Shown: positions 24,750 to 39,702 of the stretch, piece by piece
How positions within the stretch are numbered: position 1 is the stretch's first letter
Layout of the letters: each line of letters begins with the position of its first letter
DNA from: an uncultured bacterium
GTDB taxonomy: Bacteria; Patescibacteriota; Minisyncoccia; Moranbacterales; UBA2206
Assembly (NCBI GenBank): GCA_903841185.1
Contig: CAIMIV010000042.1
Span: 11,319 to 75,318 of the forward strand
Direction: 5' to 3'
DNA length: 64,000 bases
Position numbers and translations under genes: made by a program
Notes under the pieces: generated by a model
Told to the model about the DNA's origin: nothing
Seen by the model: the letters and a program-made list of their open reading frames with translations, nothing else
Databases searched by the model: none

Positions 24750-24885
24750 GGTTTAATGTACTGTTTAACACCAAAATTAGCGTTCAAAGTAGCATAGCAG
24801 AAAACCAGTAACCCGTCAAGCCCACGGCCAAAAAATTTCAAAAAGGCTCTTTTAATAAGGAATATATTTTTGAACAAAACATCGT

Positions 24886-25088: not shown

Positions 25089-25215
25089 AAATCTTTATCT
25101 TTGTGGAAATTTCGAGCCAGGTTGCGTTGAACCAAGACGAAAATTTGATTTTTTTAAAAGTTTTTCCGCCACAGGCGGGATTATTTGGGGCTATTTTATT
25201 TTTAAATATAAAAAT

Positions 25216-26001
25216 ATGGAAAAAATTAACAAAAGCACAACACTGTTATTAAGTTCTTTTGCATTACTTCTGGTGCTAATCATTGCTGGGGTCATATCTT
25301 TCAAAAAAGAAATATCAACCTTAAAAAAAACACAGCAGTCATTATTACAAGAGAATGCGAAACTAAAGCAGGTCACAATTACTGATTCTCCTCAAAAAGC
25401 TCCCGTTGCTGAAATAACGGTTGGCAGTCCATGCGATGTGAATAATGGAAATATTTTAAATTCTAAGGGTCTGCAATGTTATTTTTATGATAGCTTAGAT
25501 TCAAGTGGAAATGAAATATTTCCTCGACACGGGGTATGGATTAAGCCTGATTTACGAAATATGCAAATTGATTCAAAGCTATATGAAATATATTTTAAGT
25601 CATGGAAAAAATATGTAAGTCCGGATAAAACTATTAGTTTTTCTTACCCACAAAACTGGAAAGTTGATGAGTCAAGTTGGAAGGATGGTAACTTATCTAT
25701 ACAATCAAGTGACTATTCACCGATATCAATTTCTAAGATTGAAAATAATGCTATTACAATAGAGCAGAGAATTAGTGATGATGAAAATGATAGACCATTT
25801 GAGAGAACTATTATCGAATTAAATGGCGTTAGTGGCACGAGACTCGACATCGCCCCAAAAGATAATTTAAGTGACCAAGAGCAAATAAAATTCTATTTTC
25901 AAAAGGATAAATATTACGTTGAATTAAGTGTTGCAAAAGCTGGATATGCTGCGTATGATTTTCCGACAGAATATTTATTGAGTACGATAAAAATAAAATA
26001 G
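25216..26001 (+). CDS. secreted or membrane-anchored hypothetical protein
   Basis: 261 aa with an N-terminal signal/anchor helix and no recognisable domain. Confidence 0.5.
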   Translation: MEKINKSTTLLLSSFALLLVLIIAGVISFKKEISTLKKTQQSLLQENAKLKQVTITDSPQKAPVAEITVGSPCDVNNGNILNSKGLQCYFYDSLDSSGNEIFPRHGVWIKPDLRNMQIDSKLYEIYFKSWKKYVSPDKTISFSYPQNWKVDESSWKDGNLSIQSSDYSPISISKIENNAITIEQRISDDENDRPFERTIIELNGVSGTRLDIAPKDNLSDQEQIKFYFQKDKYYVELSVAKAGYAAYDFPTEYLLSTIKIK

Positions 26002-26117
26002 CCCCAAATAATTGTTTTGCCATTCTGCAAAACAAAAACTTTTAAAAAAAATCAAATTTTCTATTAGCATGGATAAAGTTTGTGCTAATAAAAATGAAGA
26101 TAAAAATTTACATCACT

Positions 26118-26298
26118 TAACACGGCATATGCGGTTCAAAAATTTTGCGCTATTATATTTCAAGGAGTGCAAAATTTCCTCTCCCAAATTGCGCTGACGG
26201 AATGGCAAGTTTAGTGATATAATCAAGATAAGCGAAATTAACAAAATAATCAATCAATCCACGGCGCAACTTCGCATGTGCCGATACGTTAGACGAAA
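26118..26298 (+). repeat. diverged copy 3 of the island repeat
   Basis: Shares the start tacatcacttaac, a hairpin with compensatory changes (aattttgc/gcaaaatt), AAGGAG in the loop, ctctccc and a gtgaTATAATc box. It ends cgttagacgaaat. Confidence 0.5.
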
Positions 26299-26435
26299 TA
26301 AATTTATTTTATTTTTTAAATTCGCTTTTTATAATAAGAAAAAATAAGTTTTTTTATCTATTTATATAGGGGTAAAAAGGTGTTTTCTCCGCTGAGGCTG
26401 CGAAAACGGATTTATTAATATAATTTGTTTATATT

Positions 26436-28172: not shown

Positions 28173-28232
28173 CCTCAAACATGATAAAATAAAGATAAGT
28201 TTCACTGCCTATTTTAATAAAATACAAAATTC

Positions 28233-29255
28233 ATGTCCAAAAACAATCATAAAATTAGCATAAAAGACGAATTGACCGAATTTCTGCTTTACACAGCCCC
28301 AAGTGGCAAGGTAAAAGTAGAAATTTACTTTCATGACGAAAATATTTGGCTTACCCAAGACAAAATGGCCAAATTATTTGGCGTGCAACAACCAGCTATT
28401 GCCAAACACTTGAAGAATATTTTTGAAAGCGGTGAATTGCTGGAAAATTCAGTTCATTCCATTTTGGAATATACTGCCAGCGATGGCAAAAAGTATCAAA
28501 CCAAATTTTATAATCTTGACGCCATAATTTCCGTTGGATATCGGGTAAATTCAGCTCAAGCTACTCAATTTCGCATCTGGGCAACAGAAAGGCTTAAAGA
28601 GTACATCATAAAAGGTTTCACCATAGATGATGAGAGATTGAAGAATGGAAGATATTTTGACAAAGATTATTTTCTCGAACTTTTGGAAAGAGTCCGTTCA
28701 ATTCGTGCTAGTGAGCGAAAAATTTATCAGCAAATTACGGATATTTTTGCTGAATGTAGTATGGATTACAGTCCAACATCAGAAATTGCTAAAAATTTTT
28801 ATGCAATGATTCAAAATAAATTCCATTTTGCTATTACTGGCAAAACTGCAGCTGAGATTATTTATGAGACGGCTGACAAGCAAAAACCATTTATGGGACT
28901 TAAGACTTGGAAAAATTCACCAAATGGCAGAATTATCAAATCCGACACAGTTATCGCTAAAAATTATCTTAACGAGGATAAAATAAAAAAACTGGAAAGA
29001 GGCATTGTCGGCTATTTTGATTACATTGAAAGATTGATTGAGAATCACACCGCTCTCACGATGGAAAAGTTGGCGGAATCTGTAAATAACTTTTTGGAGT
29101 TTAACAAGTACGAAGTGCTTGAAGGAAAGGGCACGATTTCTCATGCCCAAGCAGAACAAAAAGCGTTTCAAGAATATGACGAATATAATAAGACGCAGGC
29201 AATAGAATCTGATTTTGACAAACTTGTAAAATCTTTACCGACTGGAGAAAAATAA
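28233..29255 (+). CDS. RhuM-family virulence/DNA-binding protein
   Basis: N-terminal VKVEIYFHDENIWLTQDKMAKLFGVQQPAIAKHL and the AIISVGYRVNS region match the RhuM family. Confidence 0.65.
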   Translation: MSKNNHKISIKDELTEFLLYTAPSGKVKVEIYFHDENIWLTQDKMAKLFGVQQPAIAKHLKNIFESGELLENSVHSILEYTASDGKKYQTKFYNLDAIISVGYRVNSAQATQFRIWATERLKEYIIKGFTIDDERLKNGRYFDKDYFLELLERVRSIRASERKIYQQITDIFAECSMDYSPTSEIAKNFYAMIQNKFHFAITGKTAAEIIYETADKQKPFMGLKTWKNSPNGRIIKSDTVIAKNYLNEDKIKKLERGIVGYFDYIERLIENHTALTMEKLAESVNNFLEFNKYEVLEGKGTISHAQAEQKAFQEYDEYNKTQAIESDFDKLVKSLPTGEK

Positions 29256-29395
29256 GGAGTTTTGAATTTTAGGCATTCCCGCCAGAGGCGGACAGGCATC
29301 CCTGACCCCTCTGCCCAAAATCCAAAACAAAAAAACTTATTTAATCTATTTAGAATAAAAAGCGAATTTAAAAAAGAAAATAAATTTACATCGTC

Positions 29396-29615
29396 TAACA
29401 AAGAATATCTGGTTCAAAAAATTTGCCGCAGTTAAAAATACAAGGAGGGCAAATTTTTTTCTCCCCTGCCTACCGGCAGGCAGGCAAATCCCGCACTTTT
29501 CCATTTTGTCGTAATTTAGGGTATAATAGGATTAATAAATAAATAGGAATATTAAGGTTTTATGCATAAAAACCAAAGTGCAGGACTTCAGATATTCTTA
29601 AACGTTAGGTGTAAT
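29396..29615 (+). repeat. copy 4 of the ~200-bp island repeat carrying a 22-bp palindromic insertion
   Basis: Same as copies 1 and 2, except that ctgcctaccggcaggcaggca is inserted after ctccc. The same 25-mer occurs at 10297. Confidence 0.7.
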
Positions 29616-29652
29616 TTATTTAAAATCCCTTAAAAAATAAATTAAGAAAAAT

Positions 29653-29955
29653 ATGACAACAATAAATGAGTTTCAAGAAATGTGTGCCAAGGTGGTGGGG
29701 GAGATTGACGCAAAATATGGCATTGCTCGTGACCCGCATTTTAGCTTCACACAATTTATGGAAGAAGTTGGTGAACTGGCGAAAGAGATAAATAAGCCGA
29801 AGTTGCGCAACAAAGAAATGGATCGGGAAAATTTGAACGGTGAATTTGCCGACGTCATCTTGCAGTTTTTCACACTTGCCAGTATGCTAGAAGTAGATGT
29901 GGAAAAGGCAGTTGAAGCTAAAATGGCGATACTGAAAGAGCGACATGATTTATAA
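29653..29955 (+). CDS. MazG-like nucleotide pyrophosphohydrolase domain protein
   Basis: 100 aa with the EEVGELAKEI...EFADVILQ pattern of the MazG/NTP-PPase all-alpha fold. Confidence 0.55.
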   Translation: MTTINEFQEMCAKVVGEIDAKYGIARDPHFSFTQFMEEVGELAKEINKPKLRNKEMDRENLNGEFADVILQFFTLASMLEVDVEKAVEAKMAILKERHDL

Positions 29956-29972
29956 TTTTAAATTACAATCCT

Positions 29973-30392
29973 ATGGGAAGGGAACAACCGCCGACATTTG
30001 ATCCGCGTGATGAGAAATATAAAAAAGTGGAGGATTTGCCGGAAGAAGAGCAGGAGAATTTTGTAAAAGTGAATGGTGGATTTATTACGCAAAAGGCCAA
30101 GCGCTTTGAGGACGCGGTTTTGAAGCAGGAGGAATTGCTTAATCCAAAGATCTTTAGGGGAAAAACTGCTGACATAATTCAAAATAGCTTGAAGGAGTCA
30201 CCGGAGGAATATATAAAGCACCATCGGCGACTAAGGCGGTGTAAAGCGTGGGCCGCTGGAGAGGAAGCCGCTGTGGCCGAAAAAAATATTATGCCGAATG
30301 AGGAGACTATTCCGGAAGACGCTAGTACGGCGGATGGACAGTCAGCTTTGACAGAAGAGGAATTGTCTGAAAAAACATGCAAAAGAATATGA
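29973..30392 (+). CDS. hypothetical acidic protein
   Basis: 139-aa ORF with no motif; its 3' end overlaps the next gene. Confidence 0.35.
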   Translation: MGREQPPTFDPRDEKYKKVEDLPEEEQENFVKVNGGFITQKAKRFEDAVLKQEELLNPKIFRGKTADIIQNSLKESPEEYIKHHRRLRRCKAWAAGEEAAVAEKNIMPNEETIPEDASTADGQSALTEEELSEKTCKRI

Positions 30393-30778
30393 AAAAAGAT
30401 AACAGAAAAAATAGCCGGCGCAGCCTGGTTTTTGTATTAGGTGCTATTTTGTGGTTGAGTGTTATTTTTTTATTTTCTGCCGAGCCGAATTTGCGCTCAC
30501 CTTTTTCCTATAACGTAGATTTCGTTTTACGCAAAATAGCGCACATTGTGGAATATCTTATTTTGACGGTGCTGGTATGGAAGGCTTTGTTGCCGCGAGC
30601 CAAAGGCAACTTGTTGCTGGCGGTTTTTTTGATAGTCTTGAGCGCGGCGGTTTTGGATGAATGTCATCAATTGTTTGTCGCAGGGCGGGAAGGCACGCTC
30701 CGCGACGTGTTGTTTGACGCGGGGGGAATTTTCATTGCTTGGTATTTTATTATTAGAAAAAAAAATGAAAAAAGATAG
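30377..30778 (+). CDS. VanZ-like membrane protein
   Basis: Hydrophobic helices and LDECHQLFVAGREGTLRDVLFDAGG typical of the VanZ family. Confidence 0.55.
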   Translation: MQKNMKKDNRKNSRRSLVFVLGAILWLSVIFLFSAEPNLRSPFSYNVDFVLRKIAHIVEYLILTVLVWKALLPRAKGNLLLAVFLIVLSAAVLDECHQLFVAGREGTLRDVLFDAGGIFIAWYFIIRKKNEKR

Positions 30779-31790
30779 CATCATTGAATTGGAGATGGGT
30801 GGCGGGGGAGAAAAATCATCGCAACTGATTGCGCAGATCCGGAAAAATTTCACGGTGAAGTCCAAATGGAAAAATAGCGCCGATGATGGAGCTGTTTTTG
30901 ATCTTGGTATAAATAATGTGGAGACGCCCCGCCAGGGCGTCTCCACAGCGTCGGATAAATTGGTGTTCACCACGGATGCTTTTATTGTGGATCCGATTTT
31001 TTTTGCCGGCGGCGACATTGGCAAGATTGCTATGTGTGGCACCATCAATGATTTATGCGTGATGGGCGCGCAGCCGATTGGCATTGGTTTGAGTGTGGTA
31101 ATTGAAGAAGGCTTTCCCGTAGATGATTTGGAAAAAATTATGCAGTCTATTGGAAAAATTTCCCAGGAAACCGGCGTGCCGATTGTGACGGGCGACACTA
31201 AGGTGACGGAAAAAGGCAAGCTCGACAAAATTGAAATTACTACATCGGGTGTCGGTTTGGCTAAAATAATAATCAATAATGGTGGAGCCAAGGTGGGCGA
31301 CGCCGTGATTGCCTCGGGCAATCTCGGCGAACACGCGGTGGCGCTTTTGGCGAGCCGCTTTAATTATAAAACAAAAATCCAGAGCGATTGTCAGCCCTTG
31401 ATTAAAGAAATTCAGAATGTTTCCCCGTATCTTACCTCGTGCAAAGACCCGACCCGCGGAGGTATGGCGGCGGTGCTTAATGAAATCGCGGAAAAATCTA
31501 AAGTAAAAATTGTTCTGGAGGAAGAGCTGTTGCCGTTTGCCAAGGAAACGGTGGCACTTTCCGGACTCTTGGGCATTGATAAATTTTCCTTTCCTTCTGA
31601 AGGGCGCTTTGTGGCCACGGTGCCGGAAAAACAGGCCAAAAAAGTGATTAAAATGCTGCAAAAATTCAATCCCGAGGCTAAAATTATCGGCCACGTGGAG
31701 CGTGGACGAGGCGTGCACCTGCAAACATCGCTAGGCAGCAGCAAAAAAATCGAAGTACCGCGAGGAAAGCTAATCCCGCGAATTTGTTAG
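30765..31790 (+). CDS. hypE: hydrogenase maturation protein HypE
   Basis: PurM-like fold, N-terminal ELEMGGGGE, and the C-terminal PRIC motif carrying the thiocyanate-carrier cysteine. The start is taken at the ATG at 30765. Confidence 0.8.
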   Translation: MKKDSIIELEMGGGGEKSSQLIAQIRKNFTVKSKWKNSADDGAVFDLGINNVETPRQGVSTASDKLVFTTDAFIVDPIFFAGGDIGKIAMCGTINDLCVMGAQPIGIGLSVVIEEGFPVDDLEKIMQSIGKISQETGVPIVTGDTKVTEKGKLDKIEITTSGVGLAKIIINNGGAKVGDAVIASGNLGEHAVALLASRFNYKTKIQSDCQPLIKEIQNVSPYLTSCKDPTRGGMAAVLNEIAEKSKVKIVLEEELLPFAKETVALSGLLGIDKFSFPSEGRFVATVPEKQAKKVIKMLQKFNPEAKIIGHVERGRGVHLQTSLGSSKKIEVPRGKLIPRIC

Positions 31791-33119
31791 AAAATATATA
31801 ATCTGCCCAAATGAAAGTCCAGCGTCGCCACGCGGAATTTGCACAACCGGTATCCTTGAGGAGGAGCCGGTTTTTTTATTTTCAAAATATTCAGAAATTA
31901 TTTTGTTGTTGGCGATTCCGCCGGCGATAAAGATTTGTGGTGAGCAACTTTTGGATTGCAGTTCAATAATCTCGCTCAAGCCTTCAGCGATGTAGCGCTG
32001 GGCAGTCGCAGCCAGCCTCCTTTTGTCTTTGTTTATATTTTTAATTAGATATTCAAACAAATAAGTTGTATTCAGTATGTAATGTTTTTTTGAAAATTTA
32101 GTCATTGAAAATTCATTGTAAATTGTAAATTGTAAATTGGAAATTGAAGGGCTTTCCATAACTTCAATCTTTGGTTTTATATCCATATAGGGCTTACCGG
32201 AGTTGCTTTCTAAGAGGTCTATCGCTTCGTGTTTGTAGGTTCTCTTATTGTCGCAAAAACCCAGTAGCAGCGAGACGGCATCTAGGATGCGACCCGTGCT
32301 GGAAGTTTCCAGACAATTAAAATTTTGTTGAAGTTGATTATACAGAACTTCAAATTCCTGCGCGGAATAATATTTTTTCGCGAAATTGTAGATAAAGTTT
32401 TTTTGAGATTTGAGATTTGAGATTTGAGATTTGTTTGTCCCTTGTTTTTTGTAGCTTGTGATTTTATCAAGTATCGCGATTAGCATTCTCGCCGGCTCCT
32501 GAATAGCCAACTCTCCTCCCAGCAATATTTGATTTTCCAAATGCCCAACGCGCTCATTGGAAATTTTAAATTTTAAATTTGTAATTTTAAATATCTCTCC
32601 TCCCCAAATTTTCTCATCTAATCCATACCCCGTTCCATCGAGAGCAATTCCGAAAAAGTTTTGAGTTTTGAGTTTTGAGTTTTGAGATTTGTTTGTATCT
32701 TGTGTCTTGTATCTTGTATCTTGCGTGAGCTCTCCCAATTGGGAGAAGATATGGGCCACGTGGTGTTGAACCTGGACATGCTCAGCTTTAAATTTTTTTG
32801 CTAATTCCTTTCCCCATAAAGTGGTGTTCATATCCGGGTGCAGGTCAGTGATGATGACATCCGGCGTAACGGATGTTTTTTTGAGAAACGCTAGGACAGT
32901 CTTTTGAAAGGCCTTGAAATTAGCGTCTTCTTGGAGATCGCCAAAATCAGGGGAGAAAAAAAGTTGACCATTTTTGAAAAAGGAAAAATTGCCAGCCGAT
33001 TCGGCTCCTAGAGAGAGGATTTGTTGAATGGTGGAATGAGGGTATTTAAAAATTTGCATGATTCGGGTAAAAAGATTATATATGTATGTAGTGTATAATA
33101 GAAATAATGAATTTGACAA
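31770..33119 (-). CDS. HypF-like carbamoyltransferase, Kae1/YgjD-like domain only
   Basis: TDLHPDMNTTLW and VQHHVAH match the HypF C-terminal domain. No acylphosphatase, Zn-finger or YrdC domain is present. Heptanucleotide tandem repeats encode low-complexity inserts. Confidence 0.55.
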   Translation of the reverse strand: MSNSLFLLYTTYIYNLFTRIMQIFKYPHSTIQQILSLGAESAGNFSFFKNGQLFFSPDFGDLQEDANFKAFQKTVLAFLKKTSVTPDVIITDLHPDMNTTLWGKELAKKFKAEHVQVQHHVAHIFSQLGELTQDTRYKTQDTNKSQNSKLKTQNFFGIALDGTGYGLDEKIWGGEIFKITNLKFKISNERVGHLENQILLGGELAIQEPARMLIAILDKITSYKKQGTNKSQISNLKSQKNFIYNFAKKYYSAQEFEVLYNQLQQNFNCLETSSTGRILDAVSLLLGFCDNKRTYKHEAIDLLESNSGKPYMDIKPKIEVMESPSISNLQFTIYNEFSMTKFSKKHYILNTTYLFEYLIKNINKDKRRLAATAQRYIAEGLSEIIELQSKSCSPQIFIAGGIANNKIISEYFENKKTGSSSRIPVVQIPRGDAGLSFGQIIYFLTNSRD

Positions 33120-33270
33120 ATCACGTCACTGTGTTATAAATAAGATTAAGAAGAAAAAAACTATGAATTATTCTTATACACAACAAAATAACTGGCGGCA
33201 TATTCAACTCTTGTAGGAAGAGCTTGGTTATGTTTTGTTATGTATAAAAACAATCACACATAAATATCCA

Positions 33271-33296
33271 ACCCCTTCCTGGAAGGGTTTTTTTGT
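33271..33296 (+). terminator. plus-strand intrinsic terminator-like hairpin
   Basis: cccttc ctg gaaggg followed by ttttttt. Confidence 0.4.
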
Positions 33297-33403
33297 ATGC
33301 AAAAAAGGTTTTTCTTGGAAGGCAGTTCTTTTAAAAGGTCTATTTCAATAGATAAATTGTTTGTCAAAAATTTAAGTGTGTCTGAGGCACAAGGAGGTGG
33401 AAA

Positions 33404-34195
33404 ATGGGTAAATATGGCGCATGGCAAGTGGGTGCAGGCATGGCGACATTGGGAGATTTGTCAATACCAATTACCCGGGACAAGCCGGGGGTATATGCTC
33501 GCGGAGAATATGGCGCGTTTTCTTCGGAAAGACGTGTAGCGATTTCAGGAGTGTGTTTGTTTGACGCTCGTTGGAGCGTGGAGTTCTCTACGGGCGGTGT
33601 GCGGTCAATCGCTTTGCCGTTGGATCGCTCGCGGGTACAAGATCGTATCCGGGAGCGGGGTTTTGAAGTCTCGCGGGTGATTTTTCCGTTGACGCTGACG
33701 GATTATCACACCAAGCTGTTGCATTTTGTTGCCAATACGGTGGAAAAATTGCAACCGGAAAAGTTGCTTTTCCATATTCCAATTGATGAATATTACGTGT
33801 ATATCCAGGAACTGGAAACGTTGATTGGGGGTGTGATTCCCGATGCCCAGGAGATTCTGGCGGGTTTTGCCGGGAAAGTGACGGACTGTTTTCGGGCAGA
33901 AATGCAGCGGGTCAAATTCGAGCGCTTTGAATTGATCCGGCCGATGCAGTGTGGCGCGGCGGATACGGAGCAATCCTATGCTATGCCCTACCAACAGCCA
34001 GAAGTTTTTGGCACAAACAAGGAGGCAATTTATGCTATTGAGGACCTGGTCGAAATGAAGATTGCTTTATTGACAGAGCAATGTCAGGGATACACCGTGC
34101 CAGTGAAATTCTGCGTGCTGGATATCCCGCATCCCTACGTAACTTTTTCAAAGAAGAATGTTATGCGGGGTGACATGGCAACGGTTTCTCTCTAG
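33404..34195 (+). CDS. hypothetical protein (higher GC than surroundings)
   Basis: 263 aa. A strong SD aggaggtg lies 7 nt upstream. No recognisable motif. Confidence 0.5.
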   Translation: MGKYGAWQVGAGMATLGDLSIPITRDKPGVYARGEYGAFSSERRVAISGVCLFDARWSVEFSTGGVRSIALPLDRSRVQDRIRERGFEVSRVIFPLTLTDYHTKLLHFVANTVEKLQPEKLLFHIPIDEYYVYIQELETLIGGVIPDAQEILAGFAGKVTDCFRAEMQRVKFERFELIRPMQCGAADTEQSYAMPYQQPEVFGTNKEAIYAIEDLVEMKIALLTEQCQGYTVPVKFCVLDIPHPYVTFSKKNVMRGDMATVSL

Positions 34196-34336
34196 GGAGT
34201 GGTCTTCATGGCGACATGTCTAACCATACCTCATCTGTTATTATTACAGATGAGGTATGGTATATTAAATGAATGCAGGAGTTTTAAAAATTAACAATAG
34301 GCCTATTGTGTAATGAGTTGCGTAACAGGTCTAATA

Positions 34337-35328
34337 TTTGTTTTATGAAAATTACAAAGTACAATGTGGATACATATATCCAGGGGAGTGTCTTTTTTGG
34401 CACCGGGGGTGGCTTGCCGGGTGATTTGCACCAAAAAATATTTCAAGATTTACTGGACAGTACGGATGAAATCAATGCGCATCCATTGGAAGCATTCCCG
34501 GATGAGGCGATATTGGTTTCGGCGTATGGCGTGGGCGACCCGTCAAAAATTCCGGAGAATTTCGTGGACAAGGTGCGAGAGGGATTTGCAAAATATAAAA
34601 AATTGACAGGCATAAAAATTGCCGGAATTGTTCCAGGGGAAATCGGTGCAGAGGGATTGGCTTTTCAAGTGGGGGCGTGTGTGGATCTGCCTATTGTGGA
34701 CGCCGATCTTGTAGGTGGGAGAGCTGCTCCGGAAATACAACTAGATGTTTTTAGTGTTTTCGGATTGCCAATAGTCCCAGTGGTTTTGTATGCCATGAAT
34801 GACAAGAGTATTTTTCTGGAAGGCAATTTTAGCGCGCAGGAAATAGAGCATATTTCACGTAATTTCTTCGCGCAAAATGGAGACAGCGGCTTCTTGATCG
34901 GTTATGGCATGTCAGCAGGAGAATATAAGAAATATGCGATGGCAGGCACTTTGTCGCAGACGATGCGAGCAGGGGAATTATTGCACGCTAAAAATAGCGC
35001 CGGCCTGGTAAGTTTGTTTGACGGGAAGATTATGAGCGAGGGGGTTATAGAGGCAGTAGAATTGAAGAGTCAGGATGGTTTTTTGGTAGGAAAAATTAAG
35101 CTCGCAGGAGGCGTGATGGAGGTCAAGAATGAGAACATTTCTTTTTTGCAAAAAAATGGTTCATTGGTGCAAGCACCGGACATCCTGATATTGCTTGCTG
35201 ATGATGGCACTCCTATACATAATACAAAAATAGCTGCCATGGTTGGACAGCACGTACGATTGATTTATCTGCCGGCGCAGGGATACTGGAATAGTGTCAT
35301 AGGGCGAGAACTATGGGAATTGCGGTAG
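34337..35328 (+). CDS. hypothetical protein, possibly DUF917-like
   Basis: A GTGGGLPGD glycine-rich N-terminus. The family assignment is tentative. Confidence 0.4.
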
Positions 35329-35428
35329 TGAATTATTACGCAGCAGGTCTGGCTTATAGATATTCAAAACATAAAAAATGTGGTAGAATATAAGTATTAA
35401 AAAGAGTGAAGAAAAAATAAAAAATATT

Positions 35429-36199
35429 ATGGAAGAAAATATTAAAAAACCCCGAGTAGCCATTGTCAGTCTGACGTCTTGTGAAGGTTGTCAATTTGCT
35501 CTCCTGGACTTGGGAGAGAAGTTTATCGAATTTGCCACGCAGGTGGAGTTGGTGGATTTTCGTTTGATCGAGGATGAGGAAGATGACGGCCGGGAATTGG
35601 ATTTGGTGTTGGTGGAAGGCAATCCGGTGACGGAAGCTAATTTGAAAACATTGCAGTCGCTGCGCAAAAGAAGCAAGCTTTTAGTGGCCTTAGGAAATTG
35701 TGCGGCCATGGGAGGAGTGCCCGAAATTAAAAATTATCACGAAGGAGTGAACACCATCAAGCACGTCTACAAATATATTCATGGCATTAACAACCCTGAA
35801 ATCAGAGAGATTGATAATTTTGTGAAAGTGGATTTCACTTTTCCGGGATGTCCGATTACGGGAGAAGAATTTTTGCAATATATCCCGTTTCTTTTACGCG
35901 GTGAGATTCCCACAATTCCCGATCAACCGGTGTGTGTGGAATGTCGCGCGGCTGGCAATCGCTGTTTGCTGCTCGATAAGAAGCCTTGTTTTGGTCCGAT
36001 GATCCAAGGAGGGTGTGGCGCGGTTTGTCCCACTTCACGTATGACCTGCCAAGGTTGTCGCGGTTTGCGCCCCACGGGAAATGTCAAGGCGATGCGAGCG
36101 GCGCTTAAGAATATGATTAGTGACCATGAGTTTGAAAATATCGCGGAGATTTTCGGTTTGCGCGATGATATTGAGGCTAGGGAAAAAGAAACGAAATAA
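35429..36199 (+). CDS. NiFe hydrogenase small subunit (group 3-like, delta-type)
   Basis: N-terminal SLTSCEGCQ and GNCAAMGG, plus C-terminal Fe-S cysteine clusters CVECRAAGNRC and CGAVCPTSRMTCQGC. Confidence 0.8.
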   Translation: MEENIKKPRVAIVSLTSCEGCQFALLDLGEKFIEFATQVELVDFRLIEDEEDDGRELDLVLVEGNPVTEANLKTLQSLRKRSKLLVALGNCAAMGGVPEIKNYHEGVNTIKHVYKYIHGINNPEIREIDNFVKVDFTFPGCPITGEEFLQYIPFLLRGEIPTIPDQPVCVECRAAGNRCLLLDKKPCFGPMIQGGCGAVCPTSRMTCQGCRGLRPTGNVKAMRAALKNMISDHEFENIAEIFGLRDDIEAREKETK

Positions 36200-36244
36200 A
36201 TTTAGTTAACTAATTAGGAGGAATAATCACTACTTATCAAAAAT

Positions 36245-37504
36245 ATGCAAATAAAAATCAATCATATTGCAAAGATGGAGGGACATACCGGCTTTATGGC
36301 CAGTGTCATTCATGGGGATGTGCGGAGTGCTAAATTGGAAGTGCAAGAAGGCATCCGCCTGATTGAAGGTGTGTTGATTGGCCGGCACTATGTGGACATG
36401 CCTATTATCGCTCAGCGCATCTGTGGCATCTGTCCGGTAGTGCACAATCTGACTTCCATCAAAGCCTTGGAGAATGCGATGGGGGTGACAGTGACGCCGG
36501 AAACAGAGAAGTTGCGTTCCGTCATGGAGTTGGGACAATTTATTCATTCTCATGCACTGCATCTTTTCTTTTTGTCGTTGGCCGATTTCTTGGATATGGA
36601 TAATGACATCCAGCTGATCAGCACTTATCCGGAAGAAACCAAAATTGCGGTGCGGTTGCGAGAGTTTGGTATGAGCATCGTCAAAGTGATTGGTGGGAGA
36701 GTGATTCATCCGATGAACAACGAGGTGGGCGGATTCAAAAAAGCGCCTGACGCAGAAGCTTTGCGCAAGATTGTGGAGAATAGTGAAGCTATTTTACAAG
36801 ACGCCTTGGCCTTGGGGGAATTTTTCAGAACCATAAAAATTCCGGATTTTCAAAGAAAAACCGAATATATCGCTTTGGGAAAGAAGGGAGAATATGCTAT
36901 TTATGCCGGGGATATTATTTCTTCGGAAGGGTTGCACATCGGTGTGGATAAGTTTGAAAATAATTTCCAGGAATTGCAAAAACAAAAAGAGGTGATTAAG
37001 CGCGTGGAGCATGAGGGCAAGAGTTATATGACCGGGGCCATCGCTCGCATCAATTTGAATCGCGATAAGCTCAATCCTCAAGCGAGTGCCTATTTGGACA
37101 GTTTGGGATTTGTTTTTCCGGATTACAATCCTTTTCATAATATCCTGGCGCAAATGGTGGAAGTGATTCATTGTGTGGAAGAAACCAGTCGCAAATTGAA
37201 AGAAATTTTGCAGAGTGATTTGGAAAAAGTGGTTACACAGCCTTATGAAGTGGCGGAAGGCGTGGGTGTCGCGGCCGTGGAAGCTCCGCGCGGAACACTC
37301 TATTATCACGTGGAAGTGGATGGTAATGGTTATATTAAAAATGCCAACATCATCACTCCCACCGCGCAGGTGCTGGCTAATCTGGAAGATGATATTGCGG
37401 ATTATATCAAGCAAATTATCGATTTGGAAGACGGGACGCGCCAAAAGAAATTACGGGCTTTCATTCGGGCGTATGATCCCTGTATTTCTTGCGCGGTACA
37501 CTAG
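36245..37504 (+). CDS. NiFe hydrogenase large subunit
   Basis: L1 motif RICGICPVVH and L2 motif DPCISCAVH at the extreme C-terminus, with no C-terminal extension. Confidence 0.9.
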   Translation: MQIKINHIAKMEGHTGFMASVIHGDVRSAKLEVQEGIRLIEGVLIGRHYVDMPIIAQRICGICPVVHNLTSIKALENAMGVTVTPETEKLRSVMELGQFIHSHALHLFFLSLADFLDMDNDIQLISTYPEETKIAVRLREFGMSIVKVIGGRVIHPMNNEVGGFKKAPDAEALRKIVENSEAILQDALALGEFFRTIKIPDFQRKTEYIALGKKGEYAIYAGDIISSEGLHIGVDKFENNFQELQKQKEVIKRVEHEGKSYMTGAIARINLNRDKLNPQASAYLDSLGFVFPDYNPFHNILAQMVEVIHCVEETSRKLKEILQSDLEKVVTQPYEVAEGVGVAAVEAPRGTLYYHVEVDGNGYIKNANIITPTAQVLANLEDDIADYIKQIIDLEDGTRQKKLRAFIRAYDPCISCAVH

Positions 37505-37632
37505 ATGCGAATGGGGTGCGAATGTTAAGAAAATAAATGCGAATAGTATATAATTTAATAATTTTTTTAATAAGTTGTTTGTGTTGAAATTAGAATAAAT
37601 TCGTTTTAGCATTAGCAATTATTTGCGAATAT

Positions 37633-38007
37633 ATGACAGAACTAAACCAGGTGTACAAATGTAATATCTGTGGCAATATGACCGAGGTCATCCATGTTGG
37701 CGGCGGGGAGTTGGTGTGTTGCGGAGCGGCGATGGAGCTGCAAGTGGAAAGAAATGATGAGGAGAGATATGAAAAACATAATCCAATAGTTGAGAGAGTG
37801 GAAGGTGGCATAATTGTGACTGTGGGAAGCATGCCTCATCCCATGGAAAGCGAGCATTATATCGAATGGATTGAAGTCATTACGGAACACCGCACTTACC
37901 GAAAAAATTTAGAGCCGGGTGGAGTGCCGGAAGCTGAATTCTTCTTTGAGGCGGAACATTTTGAAGTGCGAGCCTATTGTAATCTGCATGGAATGTGGGT
38001 GGCCTGA
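37633..38007 (+). CDS. dfx: desulfoferrodoxin (2Fe superoxide reductase)
   Basis: An N-terminal desulforedoxin-like domain KCNICGNMTEV...LVCCG is followed by a neelaredoxin domain with His/Cys ligands (HNP, HPMESEH, CNLHGMW). Confidence 0.8.
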   Translation: MTELNQVYKCNICGNMTEVIHVGGGELVCCGAAMELQVERNDEERYEKHNPIVERVEGGIIVTVGSMPHPMESEHYIEWIEVITEHRTYRKNLEPGGVPEAEFFFEAEHFEVRAYCNLHGMWVA

Positions 38008-38053
38008 AGATATTATCCCAGCACTAATTCCGATATAGTTTGTAGGTAATATG

Positions 38054-38173
38054 GGGATGCGTGTGCGAATTCGCCTCCGGCTAGGTTGAAATTTAATAAA
38101 TTAATTCAAGTGCGAATTAGTGCGGGATGCTTATTTTTATAGCTACTCGTTCCTCGCAGATAAAAATAGCATG
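38054..38173 (+). promoter_or_regulatory. partial copy of a structured leader element shared with nusG and rplK
   Basis: gtgcgaattcgcctccggcta ... tgcgaattagtgcgggatgc, then the stem tatttttat/ataaaaata enclosing the ATG at 38171. Confidence 0.4.
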
Positions 38174-38446
38174 CATGATTTTTTTCTGGCCAAACAAATA
38201 TTGGAAAAAATTAGAGAGATAGTCATGGAAAAGAAGTTGGAAAGAATTTCCAAGGTGTCGCTGGAAATTGGCAGTATTGTTTTGGCGCATGACAATCTGC
38301 CGGAACACCTGGAGGATATTAATATTGAAAATCTGGTATTCGGATTGAAAAGTTTTGCGAAAGACACCGCGCTGGCGCAAGTGGAATTTGATGTCCAAAA
38401 AGTGGCGGGAGAAAGTTGGAAAATAACCAGTATTGAGGTAGAATAA
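38171..38446 (+). CDS. HypA-like protein lacking the C-terminal zinc-finger
   Basis: The N-terminus MHDFFLAKQILEKI resembles the HypA MHE(L/M)S start. Length is 91 aa with no CxxC pairs. Confidence 0.35.
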   Translation: MHDFFLAKQILEKIREIVMEKKLERISKVSLEIGSIVLAHDNLPEHLEDINIENLVFGLKSFAKDTALAQVEFDVQKVAGESWKITSIEVE

Positions 38447-38537
38447 AATCATATAACATAAAATATATAATACAAAACATACAACATGAAACAACTTCTG
38501 AAGAAGGACTTGTTACATGCTAGATGTTGCATATCAC

Positions 38538-39554
38538 ATGACCAAGATTGCAATCAATGGCTTCGGTCGCATCGGCAGACCGGCCTTCAAAATCGCTTTT
38601 GAAAAGTCTCGCCAAGGCGGAATGGAAGTGGTGGCGATTAATGACCTGACAGATTTGAAAACCGTGGCGCATCTGCTCAAATATGATTCCAGCTATGGAC
38701 AATACAATCGCAGTGTGGAAGTGGATGAGACTAGTTCAGAGCTGATTATTGATGGACAAAGAATAAAATATCTGATGGAACCTGATCCGGAAAAGCTTCC
38801 TTGGGGAGAATTGGGAGTGGAGATTGTTTTGGAATGTACGGGAATTTTTGAAGATCGGGAAAAATCGCAAAAGCACCTGGCTGCGGGAGCCAAAAAAGTG
38901 ATTCTTTCTGCTCCGCCGAAAGGAGATATTCCGGTATATTTGATTGGTATTAATGAAGAGAAATATAATCCCGAACAGGATCATATTATTTCTAACGGCT
39001 CTTGCACGACCAATTGTTTGGCGCCGATGATAAAAATTTTGGACGAAAATTTTGGCGTAGAAAAAGGTTTTATGACTACTACGCATTCCTATACCAATGA
39101 TCAACGCTTGCAAGATTTGCCGCATCGTGATTTGCGAAGAGCCAGGGCGGCAGCGTTGAATATTATCCCAACCACTACCGGTGCTGCCAAGACGGTAGGA
39201 CTAGTAATGCCGCATCTGGAGGGAAAGTTAGATGGCATCTCTCTGCGCGTGCCGACTCCTGTGGTGTCAATTGTGGATTTCATTTGTACATTGAAAAGAG
39301 ACACTAGCGTGGAAGAATTAAATACTGCCTTTCGAGCGGCAGCTCAGGAGCAGCTAAAGGATATCTTGGCAGTGGAGGAGGGGCAACTGGTTTCTATGGA
39401 TTTCAAGGGCAACCCGCATTCAACGATTGTGGATTTGCCATTGACCATGGCCAATGGCAACCTGGTCAAGGTGGTGGGTTGGTATGATAATGAGTGGGGA
39501 TACTCAAATAGGTTGGTGGAGATGGCCGAATTAGTAGGAAGTAAATTGGCATAA
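38538..39554 (+). CDS. gapA: glyceraldehyde-3-phosphate dehydrogenase
   Basis: KIAINGFGRIGR Rossmann motif and catalytic SNGSCTTNCLAP. Confidence 0.9.
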   Translation: MTKIAINGFGRIGRPAFKIAFEKSRQGGMEVVAINDLTDLKTVAHLLKYDSSYGQYNRSVEVDETSSELIIDGQRIKYLMEPDPEKLPWGELGVEIVLECTGIFEDREKSQKHLAAGAKKVILSAPPKGDIPVYLIGINEEKYNPEQDHIISNGSCTTNCLAPMIKILDENFGVEKGFMTTTHSYTNDQRLQDLPHRDLRRARAAALNIIPTTTGAAKTVGLVMPHLEGKLDGISLRVPTPVVSIVDFICTLKRDTSVEELNTAFRAAAQEQLKDILAVEEGQLVSMDFKGNPHSTIVDLPLTMANGNLVKVVGWYDNEWGYSNRLVEMAELVGSKLA

Positions 39555-39702
39555 TGTAATTTTAATAGTAATTTTTGTAACAAAATTTTTAATTTCCAAT
39601 TTTTAATTTTATAAATAAATCTTAATTTCTAAATTTTTAAACATTAGAAATTAAAACATTATTTAAAAATTACAAAATTAAAAATTATAAAATTATATTC
39701 TC

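What the first reader, a model, noticed from the sequence alone, without database searches (positions are those of the whole stretch)
30765..38446. Minimal two-subunit NiFe hydrogenase locus with reduced maturation set and desulfoferrodoxin
Only a small subunit and a large subunit are present, with no diaphorase-type beta/gamma subunits in the window. The large subunit ends exactly at DPCISCAVH, so no C-terminal extension and presumably no endopeptidase step are needed. Neighbours are hypE, a domain-truncated hypF-like gene, a hypA-like gene without zinc-finger cysteines, and dfx. No hypB, hypC or hypD is seen here. This is either a reduced or unusual maturation pathway, or a non-canonical hydrogenase partner arrangement.
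Basis: partly seen in the sequence, partly recalled or inferred. Interest (0 to 1): 0.6.

Follow-up and report, generated by a model that had tools for sequence, protein, structure and literature searches.

The report
Scattered CPR NiFe hydrogenase gene cluster
This is the conserved cytoplasmic nickel-iron hydrogenase locus of a Moranbacteria (candidate phyla radiation) genome; it looks minimal partly because a rearrangement moved hypC, hypD and a likely electron-transfer partner gene just past the window's edge, though the trimmed maturation proteins are a real trait of the lineage.

Summary
The large subunit ends at DPCISCAVH. The window holds no hypB, hypC, hypD or beta/gamma genes.

The "minimal" reading is only partly right. 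A contig identical to the window's last 3.4 kb continues into hydA-like, hypC and hypD, 2 to 5 kb beyond the window end. A nuoE-nuoF pair occurs in four of the same metagenomes on another contig. In sister Moraniibacteriota species these genes are contiguous: nuoE-nuoF-hydA-like-hypC-hypD-hypE-hypF-small-large-dfx-hypA-gap. So the window holds one piece of a scattered cluster.

The real lineage-wide traits are:
- no C-terminal peptide on the large subunit (120 of 120 close homologs);
- a single-domain HypF, as in C. necator HypF1;
- a cysteine-free, roughly 90-residue HypA;
- no hypB, protease or HyhB/G gene in any of 80 species loci.

The two nearest outgroups checked that carry canonical four-subunit 3b operons also end at the histidine.

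Verdict: a new variant of a known kind (CPR group-3b-related hydrogenase), of moderate interest. Two side observations matter more: HypC::HydE fusions with HydG beside NiFe genes in sister lineages, and 7-bp repeat tracts inside hypF.

The parts
30377..30778 (+). VanZ-like membrane protein gene directly upstream of hypE, overlapping it. It marks the left breakpoint of the hydrogenase block.
   Evidence: PF04892 VanZ, E = 2e-13. A homologous 127-132-aa gene lies beside hypE in L011 and between hypD and hypE in L013 and L014. Upstream of it the window carries low-GC DNA (0.33-0.35) with RhuM, MazG, ABC-transporter and integrase genes where hypC-hypD would be expected.
30765..31790 (+). hypE, the carbamoyl dehydratase that carries thiocyanate on its C-terminal cysteine.
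   Evidence: TIGR02124 at 324.6 bits, above the 251.6 cutoff. It ends in PRIC, as do all 33 clade HypE proteins. It is 74% identical to L009 HypE.
31770..33059 (-). hypF reduced to the Kae1-like carbamoyltransferase domain. It is 429 aa from the conserved ATG; the mechanical ORF runs to 33119. It carries the HHVAH metal motif. The acylphosphatase, Zn-finger and YrdC-like domains are absent.
   Evidence: Pfam HypF_C plus HypF_C_2 only. TIGR00143 matches positions 385-738 of 741. PDB 4g9i matches residues 401-754. All 39 clade homologs are 313-500 aa. The alignment places the start at M21. Another assembly calls the gene at 429 aa.
32115..32723 (.). Five heptanucleotide tandem tracts, each about 32 bp, inside hypF: 32115-32146, 32402-32433, 32561-32592, 32657-32691 and 32693-32723. 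They encode its low-complexity inserts.
   Evidence: Tandem Repeats Finder and mapping of the inserts. L001, the same population from another sample, lacks exactly one 7-bp unit at 32402-32408, which splits hypF there.
33404..34195 (+). Orphan 263-aa ORF, a lineage-specific insertion between hypF and the small subunit.
   Evidence: No Pfam, NCBIfam, PHROGs or PDB match and no Rfam match. It is a singleton among the ORFs of 80 species loci and is absent from L011, the species at 93% identity. It is present in all assemblies of this population.
34306..35328 (+). DUF917/S-methyl-thiohydantoin-desulfurase-like gene, part of the same lineage-specific insertion. It is probably unrelated to hydrogenase function.
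   Evidence: PF06032 and PF20906, each at E of about 1e-21. The NCBIfam match is far below its cutoff. It is a singleton among the 80 loci.
35429..36199 (+). [NiFe]-hydrogenase small subunit (delta-type, 256 aa) with cysteine motifs for three [4Fe-4S] clusters.
   Evidence: PF01058. The best NCBIfam models are ShyD and HydD (144 and 142 bits). The best PDB match is P. furiosus sulfhydrogenase I delta, 9e15_A, at 128.7 bits; the alignment shows the 4 + 8 cysteines conserved. Present in 48 of 48 loci with at least 8 kb upstream.
36245..37504 (+). [NiFe]-hydrogenase large subunit (419 aa), group-3b-like, with all four Ni/Fe-ligating cysteines and no C-terminal extension.
   Evidence: RICGICPVVH and terminal DPCISCAVH. 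PDB scores: P. furiosus SHI alpha 227.8 bits, Mvh (3c) 176.7, HydL of NiFe-HydABCSL 168.3, 3d 132.8. All 120 close homologs end at the histidine and 119 keep RICGICPVVH.
37633..38007 (+). dfx, desulfoferrodoxin (a 2Fe superoxide reductase).
   Evidence: TIGR00320 at 171.2 bits, above the 146.9 cutoff; both Pfam domains match. It occupies this slot in 30 of 64 species loci.
38171..38446 (+). hypA-like nickel chaperone lacking the zinc-finger domain (91 aa, MHD N-terminus, no cysteine).
   Evidence: PF01155 matches all 23 clade members tested (best E = 3e-9), covering profile positions 1-70 of 112 for the window's own protein. Invariant residues are M1, H2, D3, H40 and H46. Present in 64 of 64 loci with downstream flank. 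Of 60 members, 47 have no cysteine and only 1 has a CxxC motif.
38517..39554 (+). gap (glyceraldehyde-3-phosphate dehydrogenase), an almost invariant downstream neighbour of the hydrogenase genes.
   Evidence: Gp_dh_N and Gp_dh_C. Present in 62 of 64 loci. Outgroup CPR loci also carry GAPDH, PGK or enolase downstream.

Best explanation
The region is the catalytic core and part of the maturation set of the conserved cytoplasmic, group-3b-related [NiFe]-hydrogenase system of Moraniibacteriota (CPR/Patescibacteria).

Shown:
- A catalytically intact large/small subunit pair. The large subunit has four metal-ligating cysteines. The small subunit has motifs for three [4Fe-4S] clusters.
- HypE, a Kae1-only HypF, a Zn-free HypA and Dfx, embedded among glycolysis genes.
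- hypC, hypD and a HydA-like multi-FeS gene about 28.5 kb downstream on the same contig.
- In sister species the same genes form one cluster: nuoE-nuoF-hydA-like-hypC-hypD-hypE-hypF-small-large-(dfx)-hypA-gap.

Inferred:
- A rearrangement scattered the ancestral cluster in this genome. Retroelement (RT) and integrase genes lie near the displaced pieces, in low-GC DNA.
- The NiFe(CN)2CO site is built by HypC/D/E plus single-domain HypF. As proposed for C. necator HypF1, that HypF would need carbamoyl-adenylate from another source.
- Nickel is delivered by the Zn-free HypA without a dedicated HypB.
- No proteolytic step is needed, because the large subunit is made in its 'mature' length.
- The enzyme passes electrons from the small subunit's distal cluster to the HydA-like FeS protein and a NuoEF-type flavoprotein. 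This links H2 evolution or uptake to NAD(P)H, and possibly ferredoxin, produced by the neighbouring glycolytic enzymes.
For: - Gene identities.
- Taxonomy: homologs are named Moranbacteria or Moraniibacteriota.
- hypC/hypD/hydA-like location: L091 positions 1-3425 are 100% identical to window 60576-64000, and L091 continues into GatB, HydA-like (469 aa), HypC (MCLAIPGK...) and HypD. HypD P0308 and the large subunit P0001 share the same longest contig, 162,217 bp.
- NuoF-like P0430, with NuoE, occurs in samples ERZ1426595, ERZ27313542, ERZ27313544 and ERZ18660293. All four also carry the window's large subunit.
- Synteny in 80 species. Among 48 loci with at least 8 kb upstream: small 48, HypF 29, HypE 26, HypD 25, HypC at least 24, HydA-like 17, NuoF 16, NuoE 12. 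Among 64 loci with downstream flank: hypA 64, GAPDH 62, dfx 30.
- No HyhB/HyhG in any locus.
- Purifying selection: 120 of 120 homologs end at the histidine, 119 of 120 keep L1, and identities are 70-93%.
- Precedent for single-domain HypF: PMC9100943.
- Precedent for extension-less large subunits matured by the Hyp machinery: PMC7294309.
Against: - No experiment or expression data exist. The physical association of the NiFe dimer with HydA-like/NuoEF rests on gene adjacency in only about a third of species.
- Many species loci show no partner genes within 10 kb. Seven of 48 show none of the hyp or hyd accessory genes.
- Assigning the nuoEF contig to this genome rests on sample co-occurrence alone. 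Tetranucleotide composition did not discriminate.
- The small subunit has three clusters, unlike the single-cluster HydS of the solved NiFe-HydABCSL. The large subunit is closer to SHI than to HydL.
- The NuoF-like protein is short (414 aa) and shows only core NuoF Pfam domains, so electron bifurcation cannot be assumed.
- hypB, or a functional substitute, and a YrdC-type partner for HypF could be encoded elsewhere in the genome.
Confidence: 0.7

Rival explanations
1. The enzyme really is a stand-alone heterodimer in this organism. Its distal [4Fe-4S] cluster would exchange electrons directly with a small soluble carrier such as ferredoxin or rubredoxin, or with the co-transcribed desulfoferrodoxin. 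That would give H2-driven superoxide detoxification, or simple ferredoxin-dependent H2 evolution.
For: - dfx lies between the large subunit gene and hypA here and in 30 of 64 species.
- The invariant core across species is only small-large-hypA-gap.
- nuoE, nuoF and hydA-like are missing from the 10-kb neighbourhood in about two thirds of species, and are unlinked here.
- Jaffe et al. 2020 also found CPR 3b-related enzymes with no detectable beta or gamma subunits.
Against: - dfx is absent from about half of the loci that share the same core.
- hydA-like always directly precedes hypC when present, and is retained next to hypC-hypD in this genome.
- No rubredoxin or ferredoxin gene is in the locus.
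Confidence: 0.2
2. The locus is a decaying relic. The hydrogenase is being lost through genome reduction, so the missing and truncated maturation genes reflect erosion rather than a working minimal pathway.
For: - The cluster is fragmented and has mobile-element genes nearby.
- hypF carries five slippage-prone 7-bp tracts and is frameshifted in one assembly.
- The accessory gene content is patchy across species.
Against: - All ORFs in the window are intact.
- Large-subunit ligand motifs are conserved in 119-120 of 120 homologs at 70-93% identity.
- All 33 HypE proteins keep PRIC. HypF keeps its HHxAH motif and many invariant residues.
- The truncated forms of HypF and HypA are conserved across dozens of species, which argues for selection rather than decay.
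Confidence: 0.06
3. It is an H2-sensing (regulatory) hydrogenase, because the large subunit lacks a C-terminal extension as in groups 2b and 2d.
For: Extension-less large subunits are typical of sensory hydrogenases (PMC7294309).
Against: - The sequence is closest to group 3b, not group 2.
- No histidine kinase or response regulator lies adjacent.
- Four-subunit 3b outgroups with NAD(P)-binding gamma subunits also lack the extension.
Confidence: 0.03

Closest known systems
Group 3b [NiFe]-hydrogenase (Pyrococcus furiosus sulfhydrogenase I, HydADBG; T. kodakarensis Hyh)
   Same: - The large and small subunits align end to end with SHI alpha and delta (227.8 and 128.7 bits).
- The L1 and L2 motifs are the same.
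- The small subunit has the same 12-cysteine pattern for three [4Fe-4S] clusters.
- Both are cytoplasmic.
   Different: - No beta (HyhB) or gamma (HyhG) genes occur in the window or in any of 80 species loci.
- The large subunit ends at the histidine. The SHI precursor entry 9nez_D is 428 aa with the histidine at position 424, so it has four further residues.
- NCBIfam scores are far below the equivalog cutoffs: 246 bits against 700 and 880.
CPR 'hyd1/hyd2' group-3b-related hydrogenases (Jaffe et al. 2020, PMC7304191); Moranbacteria group 3b entry in HydDB (PMC5037454)
   Same: - A CPR-specific clade related to group 3b.
- Variable genomic context, with hypC nearby.
- Some members lack detectable beta and gamma subunits.
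- HydDB classed a Moranbacteria large subunit as group 3b.
   Different: - The small subunit here is full length (256 aa), like hyd1 and unlike the roughly 164-aa hyd2 form, yet the hyd1-type beta and gamma genes are absent.
- NuoE/NuoF/HydA-like neighbours, Kae1-only HypF and Zn-free HypA are not mentioned in the passages I read.
- I could not place this clade on their tree.
NiFe-HydABCSL electron-bifurcating hydrogenase of Acetomicrobium mobile (PDB 7t2r; PMC8880783)
   Same: In sister species a NuoE-like, a NuoF-like and a HydA-type multi-FeS gene are clustered with NiFe small and large subunit genes. That is the same modular logic of a flavoprotein module joined to a NiFe dimer.
   Different: - The large subunit is less similar to HydL (168 bits) than to SHI.
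- The small subunit has three clusters, whereas HydS is a 179-aa chain.
- The HydA-like protein resembles [FeFe] HydA1 of bifurcating enzymes (8a6t_A, 213.6 bits), not A. mobile HydA (80.6 bits, N-terminal part only).
- NuoF-like is only 414 aa.
- In the window's genome the genes are unlinked.
Cupriavidus necator HypF1 (single-domain HypF)
   Same: It comprises only one of the three HypF domains and is thought to need pre-formed carbamoyl-adenylate (PMC9100943). The window's HypF likewise has only the Kae1-like domain.
   Different: C. necator also has a full-length HypF2. No full-length HypF was seen in any Moraniibacteriota locus. The CPR protein carries variable low-complexity inserts encoded by 7-bp repeats.
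Naturally extension-less large subunits (groups 2b, 2d, 4c, 4e, 4g; PMC7294309)
   Same: The large subunit ends at the histidine of DPCxxCxxH, no endopeptidase is needed, and the Hyp machinery is still used.
   Different: Group 3b is not in that published list. Here the trait covers the Moraniibacteriota clade and its nearest relatives: 40 of the 150 best 50%-identity cluster representatives end at the histidine.

Membership tests
[NiFe]-hydrogenase large subunit | N-terminal RxCGxCxxxH and C-terminal DPCxxCxxH motifs that supply the four Ni/Fe-ligating cysteines | tested here: met
   RICGICPVVH and DPCISCAVH are present. They are conserved in 119 and 120 of 120 homologs respectively. PF00374 matches at E = 2e-33.
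Group 3b [NiFe]-hydrogenase (HyhBGSL / sulfhydrogenase) | Large subunit most similar to group 3b references | tested here: met
   PDB scores: SHI alpha 227.8 bits, 3c 176.7, HydL 168.3, 3d 132.8. The best NCBIfam models are ShyA and HydA, though at 246 bits against cutoffs of 700 and 880. HydDB itself was not available.
Group 3b [NiFe]-hydrogenase (HyhBGSL / sulfhydrogenase) | Small (delta) subunit with three [4Fe-4S] clusters | tested here: met
   The alignment to 9e15_A conserves the CxxC...C...C motif plus eight further cysteines.
Group 3b [NiFe]-hydrogenase (HyhBGSL / sulfhydrogenase) | Tetramer with a beta (HyhB, Fer4_22) and a gamma (HyhG, FAD/NAD-binding with a [2Fe-2S] cluster) diaphorase subunit encoded alongside | tested here: not met
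   Beta and gamma subunits from the outgroups L098 and L100 found no tblastn hit in the window or in any Moraniibacteriota locus. Pfam on all large ORFs of the window found none. The rest of the genome could not be searched.
NiFe-HydABCSL / Bfu-type hydrogenase | NuoE-, NuoF- and HydA-type subunits encoded with the NiFe dimer | tested here: inconclusive
   Not met in the window. Met in 12-17 of 48 sister-species loci. In this genome hydA-like is 28.5 kb away, and nuoEF lie on another contig from the same samples.
NiFe-HydABCSL / Bfu-type hydrogenase | Short single-cluster small subunit and a HydL-type large subunit | tested here: not met
   The small subunit is 256 aa with three cluster motifs. 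The match to 7t2r_E is 57.8 bits against 128.7 bits for SHI delta. The large subunit is closer to SHI.
Canonical Hyp maturation set (HypABCDEF plus endopeptidase) | HypC and HypD scaffold | tested here: met
   Both are absent from the window but present on the same contig at window-equivalent 67626-68932. HypC starts MCLAIPGK. HypD carries the GPGCPVC and GFETT motifs.
Canonical Hyp maturation set (HypABCDEF plus endopeptidase) | HypE with a C-terminal PRIC motif | tested here: met
Canonical Hyp maturation set (HypABCDEF plus endopeptidase) | HypF with acylphosphatase, Zn-finger, YrdC-like and Kae1-like domains | tested here: not met
   Only the Kae1-like domain is present. The same holds in all 39 clade homologs.
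Canonical Hyp maturation set (HypABCDEF plus endopeptidase) | HypA with an N-terminal MHE nickel site and a CxxC...CxxC zinc domain | tested here: not met
   An N-terminal MHD and the HypA N-terminal domain are present, but there is no cysteine and no zinc domain.
Canonical Hyp maturation set (HypABCDEF plus endopeptidase) | HypB GTPase and a HycI/HybD-type endopeptidase | tested here: inconclusive
   Pfam found neither in the window. The precomputed Pfam annotation of the loci returned shows neither. The rest of the genome was not searchable.
Desulfoferrodoxin (2Fe superoxide reductase) | N-terminal Cys4 desulforedoxin-like domain plus a C-terminal His4Cys iron domain | tested here: met
   TIGR00320 scores 171.2 bits, above the 146.9 cutoff, and both Pfam domains match. 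The CxxC...CC and C-terminal CxxH motifs are visible in the sequence.

The most novel reading that the evidence does not exclude
This CPR hydrogenase family may be a natural experiment in minimal and interchangeable NiFe-site maturation.

In the window's lineage, five small proteins would suffice to build an active NiFe(CN)2CO site: HypC, HypD, HypE, a Kae1-only HypF and a Zn-free HypA with a new His-rich loop. There would be no HypB GTPase, no YrdC or acylphosphatase domains and no proteolytic checkpoint.

In sister lineages even HypD/E/F appear to be replaced by a HypC::HydE fusion plus HydG. That would mean the CN and CO ligands of a [NiFe] site can be supplied by tyrosine-cleaving radical-SAM chemistry so far known only from [FeFe]-hydrogenase maturation.
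Probability: 0.3. Interest if true: 0.8.

Novelty: new variant of a known kind. Interest (0 to 1): 0.5.

Why it matters
CPR/Patescibacteria are routinely scored as H2 producers on the strength of 'group 3b' hits and are modelled as Pyrococcus-like four-subunit sulfhydrogenases. Three points follow from this analysis.

1. In Moraniibacteriota the diaphorase genes of that model are absent. The conserved neighbours are NuoE/NuoF and an [FeFe]-HydA-like protein, which changes the predicted electron donor or acceptor.
2. The lineage keeps a strongly conserved catalytic dimer alongside a drastically trimmed Hyp set. That offers a testable minimal maturation system for heterologous production of NiFe hydrogenases.
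3. Apparent gene absences in a fixed window can be artefacts of local rearrangement. Here the 'missing' hypC and hypD were 3.6-4.9 kb outside the window.

Tried and rejected
- **AlphaFold2 on the HypA-like protein without an alignment.** The model was poor (pLDDT 65.7). Foldseek against the PDB found nothing at E of 0.001 or better, so no structural conclusion is drawn.
- **Tetranucleotide and GC comparison to bin the nuoEF contig with the window.** All Moraniibacteriota loci correlate at 0.96-0.98, so this was not discriminating.
- **Rfam scans.** The whole window at gathering thresholds and 33000-34400 at E up to 1 gave only two tRNAs and one chance miRNA hit. The odd-looking 5' part of the 263-aa ORF is not a known RNA.
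- **Promoter and terminator scan of 33000-39700.** The promoter-like count was within about one standard deviation of shuffled expectation. The terminator-like count (12 versus 5.7 ± 2.7) did not mark operon boundaries. Neither was used.
- **PHROGs and PDB searches for the orphan ORFs.** No matches.
- No hits, but the control seed HypA also failed, so this counts only as weak negative evidence.
- **A labelling error, corrected.** My first synteny labels called two radical-SAM genes in L037 and L052 'hypD', because one blast cluster merged HypC, HypD and a HypC::HydE fusion. This was corrected.
- **Sensory-hydrogenase and pseudogene readings.** Both were considered and rejected; see the rival explanations.

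Full report
**1. What is in the region**

| Gene | Coordinates (strand) | Key evidence |
|---|---|---|
| hypE | 30765-31790 (+) | TIGR02124 at 324.6 bits, above the 251.6 cutoff; C-terminal PRIC |
| hypF | 31770-33119 (-) | Kae1-like domain only (see below) |
| small subunit | 35429-36199 (+) | best NCBIfam models ShyD and HydD |
| large subunit | 36245-37504 (+) | RICGICPVVH; ends exactly ...DPCISCAVH |
| dfx | 37633-38007 (+) | TIGR00320, above cutoff |
| gap (GAPDH) | 38517-39554 (+) | Gp_dh_N and Gp_dh_C |

- The hypF ORF holds only the HypF_C and HypF_C_2 Pfam domains. It matches TIGR00143 positions 385-738 of 741 and residues 401-754 of T. kodakarensis HypF. The clade alignment puts the likely real start at 33059, which gives 429 aa.
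One is an orphan 263-aa ORF (33404-34195) with no match in Pfam, NCBIfam, PHROGs, PDB or Rfam. The other is a DUF917/S-Me-THD-like gene (34306-35328).
- Both are singletons among 80 related species loci and are absent from the 93%-identical species L011. I read them as a recent insertion, not part of the hydrogenase system.

**2. Organism and family**

- The large subunit has thousands of homologs. The 120 closest (70-100% identity) are mostly unnamed; those that carry a name are Candidatus Moranbacteria, Moraniibacteriota, Parcubacteria or Patescibacteria.
- The closest solved structures are P. furiosus sulfhydrogenase I alpha (227.8 bits, aligned end to end) and delta (128.7 bits). Group 3c scores 176.7, the HydL subunit of NiFe-HydABCSL 168.3 and group 3d 132.8.
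- The small subunit keeps the full cysteine pattern for three [4Fe-4S] clusters.
- The catalytic dimer is therefore group-3b-related. This agrees with HydDB's listing of a Moranbacteria large subunit as 3b and with the CPR-specific 3b-related clades described by Jaffe et al. 2020.

**3. Are the 'missing' genes really missing?**

Within the window, yes.
- Pfam on essentially all non-overlapping ORFs of at least 110 aa found no HypB, HypD, HycI, NuoE/F or HyhB/G-type protein.
- tblastn with clade HypC, HypD, NuoE, NuoF and HydA-like proteins, and with outgroup beta and gamma subunits, found nothing.

Within the genome, no.
- A search with a sister-species HypD returned P0308. Its longest contig is 162,217 bp, the same length as the longest contig carrying the window's large subunit.
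- Its locus L091 is 100% identical to window 60576-64000 over 3,425 bp. It then continues into GatB, a 469-aa HydA-like protein, HypC (MCLAIPGK...) and HypD.
- In window-equivalent coordinates these lie at 66044-67453 (HydA-like), 67626-67832 (HypC) and 67829-68932 (HypD). That is 2 to 5 kb beyond the window's end and about 28.5 kb downstream of the large subunit.
- A NuoF-like protein (P0430, 73% identical to the locus copy of a sister species) with an adjacent NuoE-like gene occurs on separate contigs in four samples. All four also carry the window's large subunit.
- Composition could not confirm that these contigs belong to the same genome, so this link is probable, not shown.

**4. The ancestral arrangement**

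I examined eighty species-level loci from GTDB representatives, plus loci found by exact protein look-up. They show one syntenic backbone:

ruvX-GT2-galT-TIM-FBA-[nuoE-nuoF-hydA-like]-hypC-hypD-hypE-(hypF, opposite strand)-small-[M10 peptidase]-large-[dfx]-hypA-gap-amidohydrolase-murD.

| Gene | Loci with gene / loci with enough flank |
|---|---|
| small subunit | 48 / 48 (at least 8 kb upstream) |
| HypF | 29 / 48 |
| HypE | 26 / 48 |
| HypD | 25 / 48 |
| HypC | at least 24 / 48 |
| HydA-like | 17 / 48 |
| NuoF | 16 / 48 |
| NuoE | 12 / 48 |
| none of the accessory genes | 7 / 48 |
| hypA-like | 64 / 64 (at least 2 kb downstream) |
| gap | 62 / 64 |
| dfx | 30 / 64 |

- No locus has HyhB/HyhG-type genes.
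- In the window, the DNA upstream of vanZ-hypE is low in GC (0.33-0.35). It carries RhuM, MazG, ABC-transporter and integrase genes.
- The displaced nuoEF pair sits next to a reverse-transcriptase gene, with bAvd also present in L094.
- The window therefore shows one fragment of a cluster scattered by rearrangement. It is not a primitively minimal operon.

**5. What is really unusual, and how widely it holds**

(a) *No C-terminal peptide.* All 120 close homologs end at the histidine. Of the 150 best 50%-identity cluster representatives, 40 end at the histidine, and these are concentrated among the nearest relatives at 36-46% identity. More distant ones carry 4 to 19 extra residues. Two of the nearest outgroups (L098, L100) have canonical beta-gamma-small-large operons and also end at the histidine. 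The trait therefore predates, and is independent of, the loss of beta and gamma. Extension-less large subunits matured by the normal Hyp machinery are well known for groups 2b, 2d, 4c, 4e and 4g (PMC7294309). Group 3b is not on that list.

(b) *Single-domain HypF.* All 39 clade homologs are 313-500 aa, with the HHxAH motif and many invariant residues. The precedent is C. necator HypF1, which has one of three domains and probably needs pre-formed carbamoyl-adenylate (PMC9100943).

(c) *Zn-free HypA.* It is about 90 aa and starts MHD in 56 of 60 members. Forty-seven of 60 have no cysteine. Every one of 23 members tested matches PF01155; in the window's own protein the match covers only the N-terminal 70 of 112 profile positions. 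Invariant residues include H2, H40 and H46 in a conserved AHDGxxEHxED loop. Two species carry a poly-His expansion there. The same type occurs in the outgroup L100.

(d) *No hypB or endopeptidase gene* in any examined locus. The only whole-genome-independent test I could run had low sensitivity.

**6. Likely mechanism**

Shown: intact catalytic motifs, strong conservation, and co-location with glycolytic genes. TIM and FBA lie upstream in relatives. gap lies immediately downstream here, and PGK is at window 13186-14223.

Inferred:
- HypC/D/E and Kae1-only HypF assemble Fe(CN)2CO.
- HypA delivers nickel through its N-terminal MHD site and His loop.
- The large subunit needs no cleavage.
- Electrons move through the three clusters of the small subunit to a partner.

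The best candidate partner is the HydA-like FeS protein together with the NuoEF-like flavoprotein, because these genes directly precede hypC in about a third of species. That would tie H2 formation to re-oxidation of NAD(P)H, and possibly ferredoxin, from fermentation.

The HydA-like protein is closest to the HydA1 subunit of bifurcating [FeFe] hydrogenases (8a6t_A, 213.6 bits). It keeps the H-cluster cysteine motifs in altered form (SHCP, SACTAKK, MICPGGCVGGGGQ) but ends right after GGGQ. NuoF-like is short (414 aa), so I do not claim bifurcation.

A stand-alone dimer feeding ferredoxin or Dfx remains a serious rival (0.2). Decay and sensor readings are unlikely.

**7. Comparison with the literature**

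- Valentin-Alvarado et al. 2024 describe Moranbacteria and Berkelbacteria 3b enzymes as Pyrococcus-like HyhLSGB complexes.
- Jaffe et al. 2020 noted that beta and gamma are undetectable for some CPR enzymes and left their function open.
- In the searchable library I found no description of four things: NuoE/NuoF/HydA-like neighbours for this clade, the Kae1-only HypF, the Zn-free HypA in CPR, or any HypC-HydE fusion.
- The locus is thus a new variant of a known kind.

**8. Side observations**

- *HypC::HydE and HydG in sister lineages.* The slot normally holding hypD-E-F is occupied by a HypC::HydE fusion plus HydG in some relatives. HypC matches TIGR00074 above its cutoff at residues 1-67. 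HydE matches TIGR03956 at 295 bits against a cutoff of 254.6. HydG matches TIGR03955 at 564 bits against a cutoff of 312. The fusion recurs in seven independent metagenome loci at 56-100% identity, always starting MCL and keeping the CX3CX2C motif. In the four of these loci that extend far enough (L102, L103, L104, L107), and in L109, whose copy is cut off by the contig end, it is followed by HydG and by NiFe small and large subunit genes. Those large subunits diverge to as little as 30-45% identity with the window's, and the four full-length ones checked (L102, L103, L104, L109) keep intact ligand motifs.
- *Heptanucleotide tracts in hypF.* hypF in the window carries five 7-bp tandem tracts. 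One differs by exactly one unit in another assembly of the same population, which frameshifts the gene.

Both observations are reported separately below.

Noticed in passing
L037:5419-8158; also L102-L108 (the fusion), and L052:7551-8945 and L099:566-1936 (HydG). Not in the window.: In some Moraniibacteriota and more distant CPR relatives, the slot that normally holds hypD-hypE-hypF contains a HypC::HydE fusion protein (419-441 aa) followed by HydG. The fusion has an N-terminal MCL(T/A)xP HypC module and a radical-SAM HydE with CX3CX2C. In the loci long enough to show it, the NiFe small and large subunit genes come directly after; the large subunits checked have intact cysteine motifs. No hypD, hypE, hypF or hydA-like gene lies within the flanks held (about 5-8 kb upstream). 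Either these enzymes serve an [FeFe]-like HydA encoded elsewhere, or radical-SAM chemistry supplies CN/CO to a [NiFe] site. I found no paper describing this.
   Followed up: partly
window 32115-32146, 32402-32433, 32561-32592, 32657-32691, 32693-32723 (inside hypF); also 22345-22376, 22597-22628, 22774-22805 (inside the PrmC-like methyltransferase gene 22025-22945): Heptanucleotide tandem tracts of about 4.5 copies (about 32 bp each) lie inside two coding genes. In hypF they encode the low-complexity inserts. Assembly L001 of the same population (99.9% identical) lacks exactly one 7-bp unit at 32402-32408, which splits hypF into 256- and 129-aa ORFs. The window and a third assembly are in frame at 429 aa. 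This could be slipped-strand ON/OFF switching of hydrogenase maturation, or assembly noise.
   Followed up: partly
L091:5469-6878 (window-equivalent 66044-67453); homologs in 17 of 48 species loci: A 469-aa [FeFe]-hydrogenase HydA-like protein always sits directly upstream of hypC. It keeps the N-terminal FeS domains and altered H-cluster motifs (SHCP for TSCCP, SACTAKK for MPCxxKK, MICPGGCVGGGGQ) but terminates right after GGGQ. Its best PDB match is the bifurcating HydA1, 8a6t_A, at 213.6 bits. It may be a degenerate H-domain re-used as an electron-transfer adaptor for the NiFe dimer.
   Followed up: partly
L024, L049, L050, L055, L069, L070, L072, L074, L076, L077, L079 (for example L069:3861-4577); L047, L058, L063 (for example L063:5554-7212): There are two further alternative gene sets in the maturation slot after hypC. 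One is an uncharacterised 220-240-aa protein ('c19') with no Pfam match. The other is an EamA transporter plus a DUF6390 protein. In these loci hypD, hypE and hypF are not within 10 kb.
   Followed up: partly
25 of the 80 species loci, for example L005:8940-9893: A membrane-anchored M10 (matrixin-like) metallopeptidase gene is inserted between the small and large subunit genes in many species. Others have a PDDEXK_3 or GIY-YIG gene there. The intergenic space between the two structural genes appears to be an insertion hot spot.
   Followed up: no
L091:7254-8357 (HypD of this genome); L022 and L029 HypD: HypD of this genome and of two other species carries an in-frame insert of about 23 aa at the same position (..NNAGPHPNSLLKKERGQMEKNFQ..). 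It resembles the translation of a short repeated or palindromic DNA element.
   Followed up: no
window 20000-30400: A low-GC segment (0.33-0.35, against 0.41 for the whole window) carries a tyrosine recombinase (22955-23815, minus strand), a lysine/alanine-rich repeat array (21681-21850), a RhuM-family gene, a MazG-like gene and an ABC transporter. It lies immediately upstream of vanZ-hypE, where relatives have hypC-hypD. It is probably inserted or mobile DNA linked to the break-up of the cluster.
   Followed up: partly
window 46584-55682: A giant 3,032-aa ORF whose only Pfam match is a Peptidase_S74 (endosialidase chaperone) domain near residue 2708. It is followed by tRNA-Ala and tRNA-Ile with no rRNA genes nearby.
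   Followed up: no
L094:759-2196; L093:3321-4388: The nuoE-nuoF pair attributed to this population lies directly downstream of a reverse-transcriptase gene (RVT_1). In L094 a bAvd gene is also present, which resembles a diversity-generating retroelement. RT-like ORFs also flank hyp and hyd genes in L015, L029, L030 and L040.
   Followed up: no
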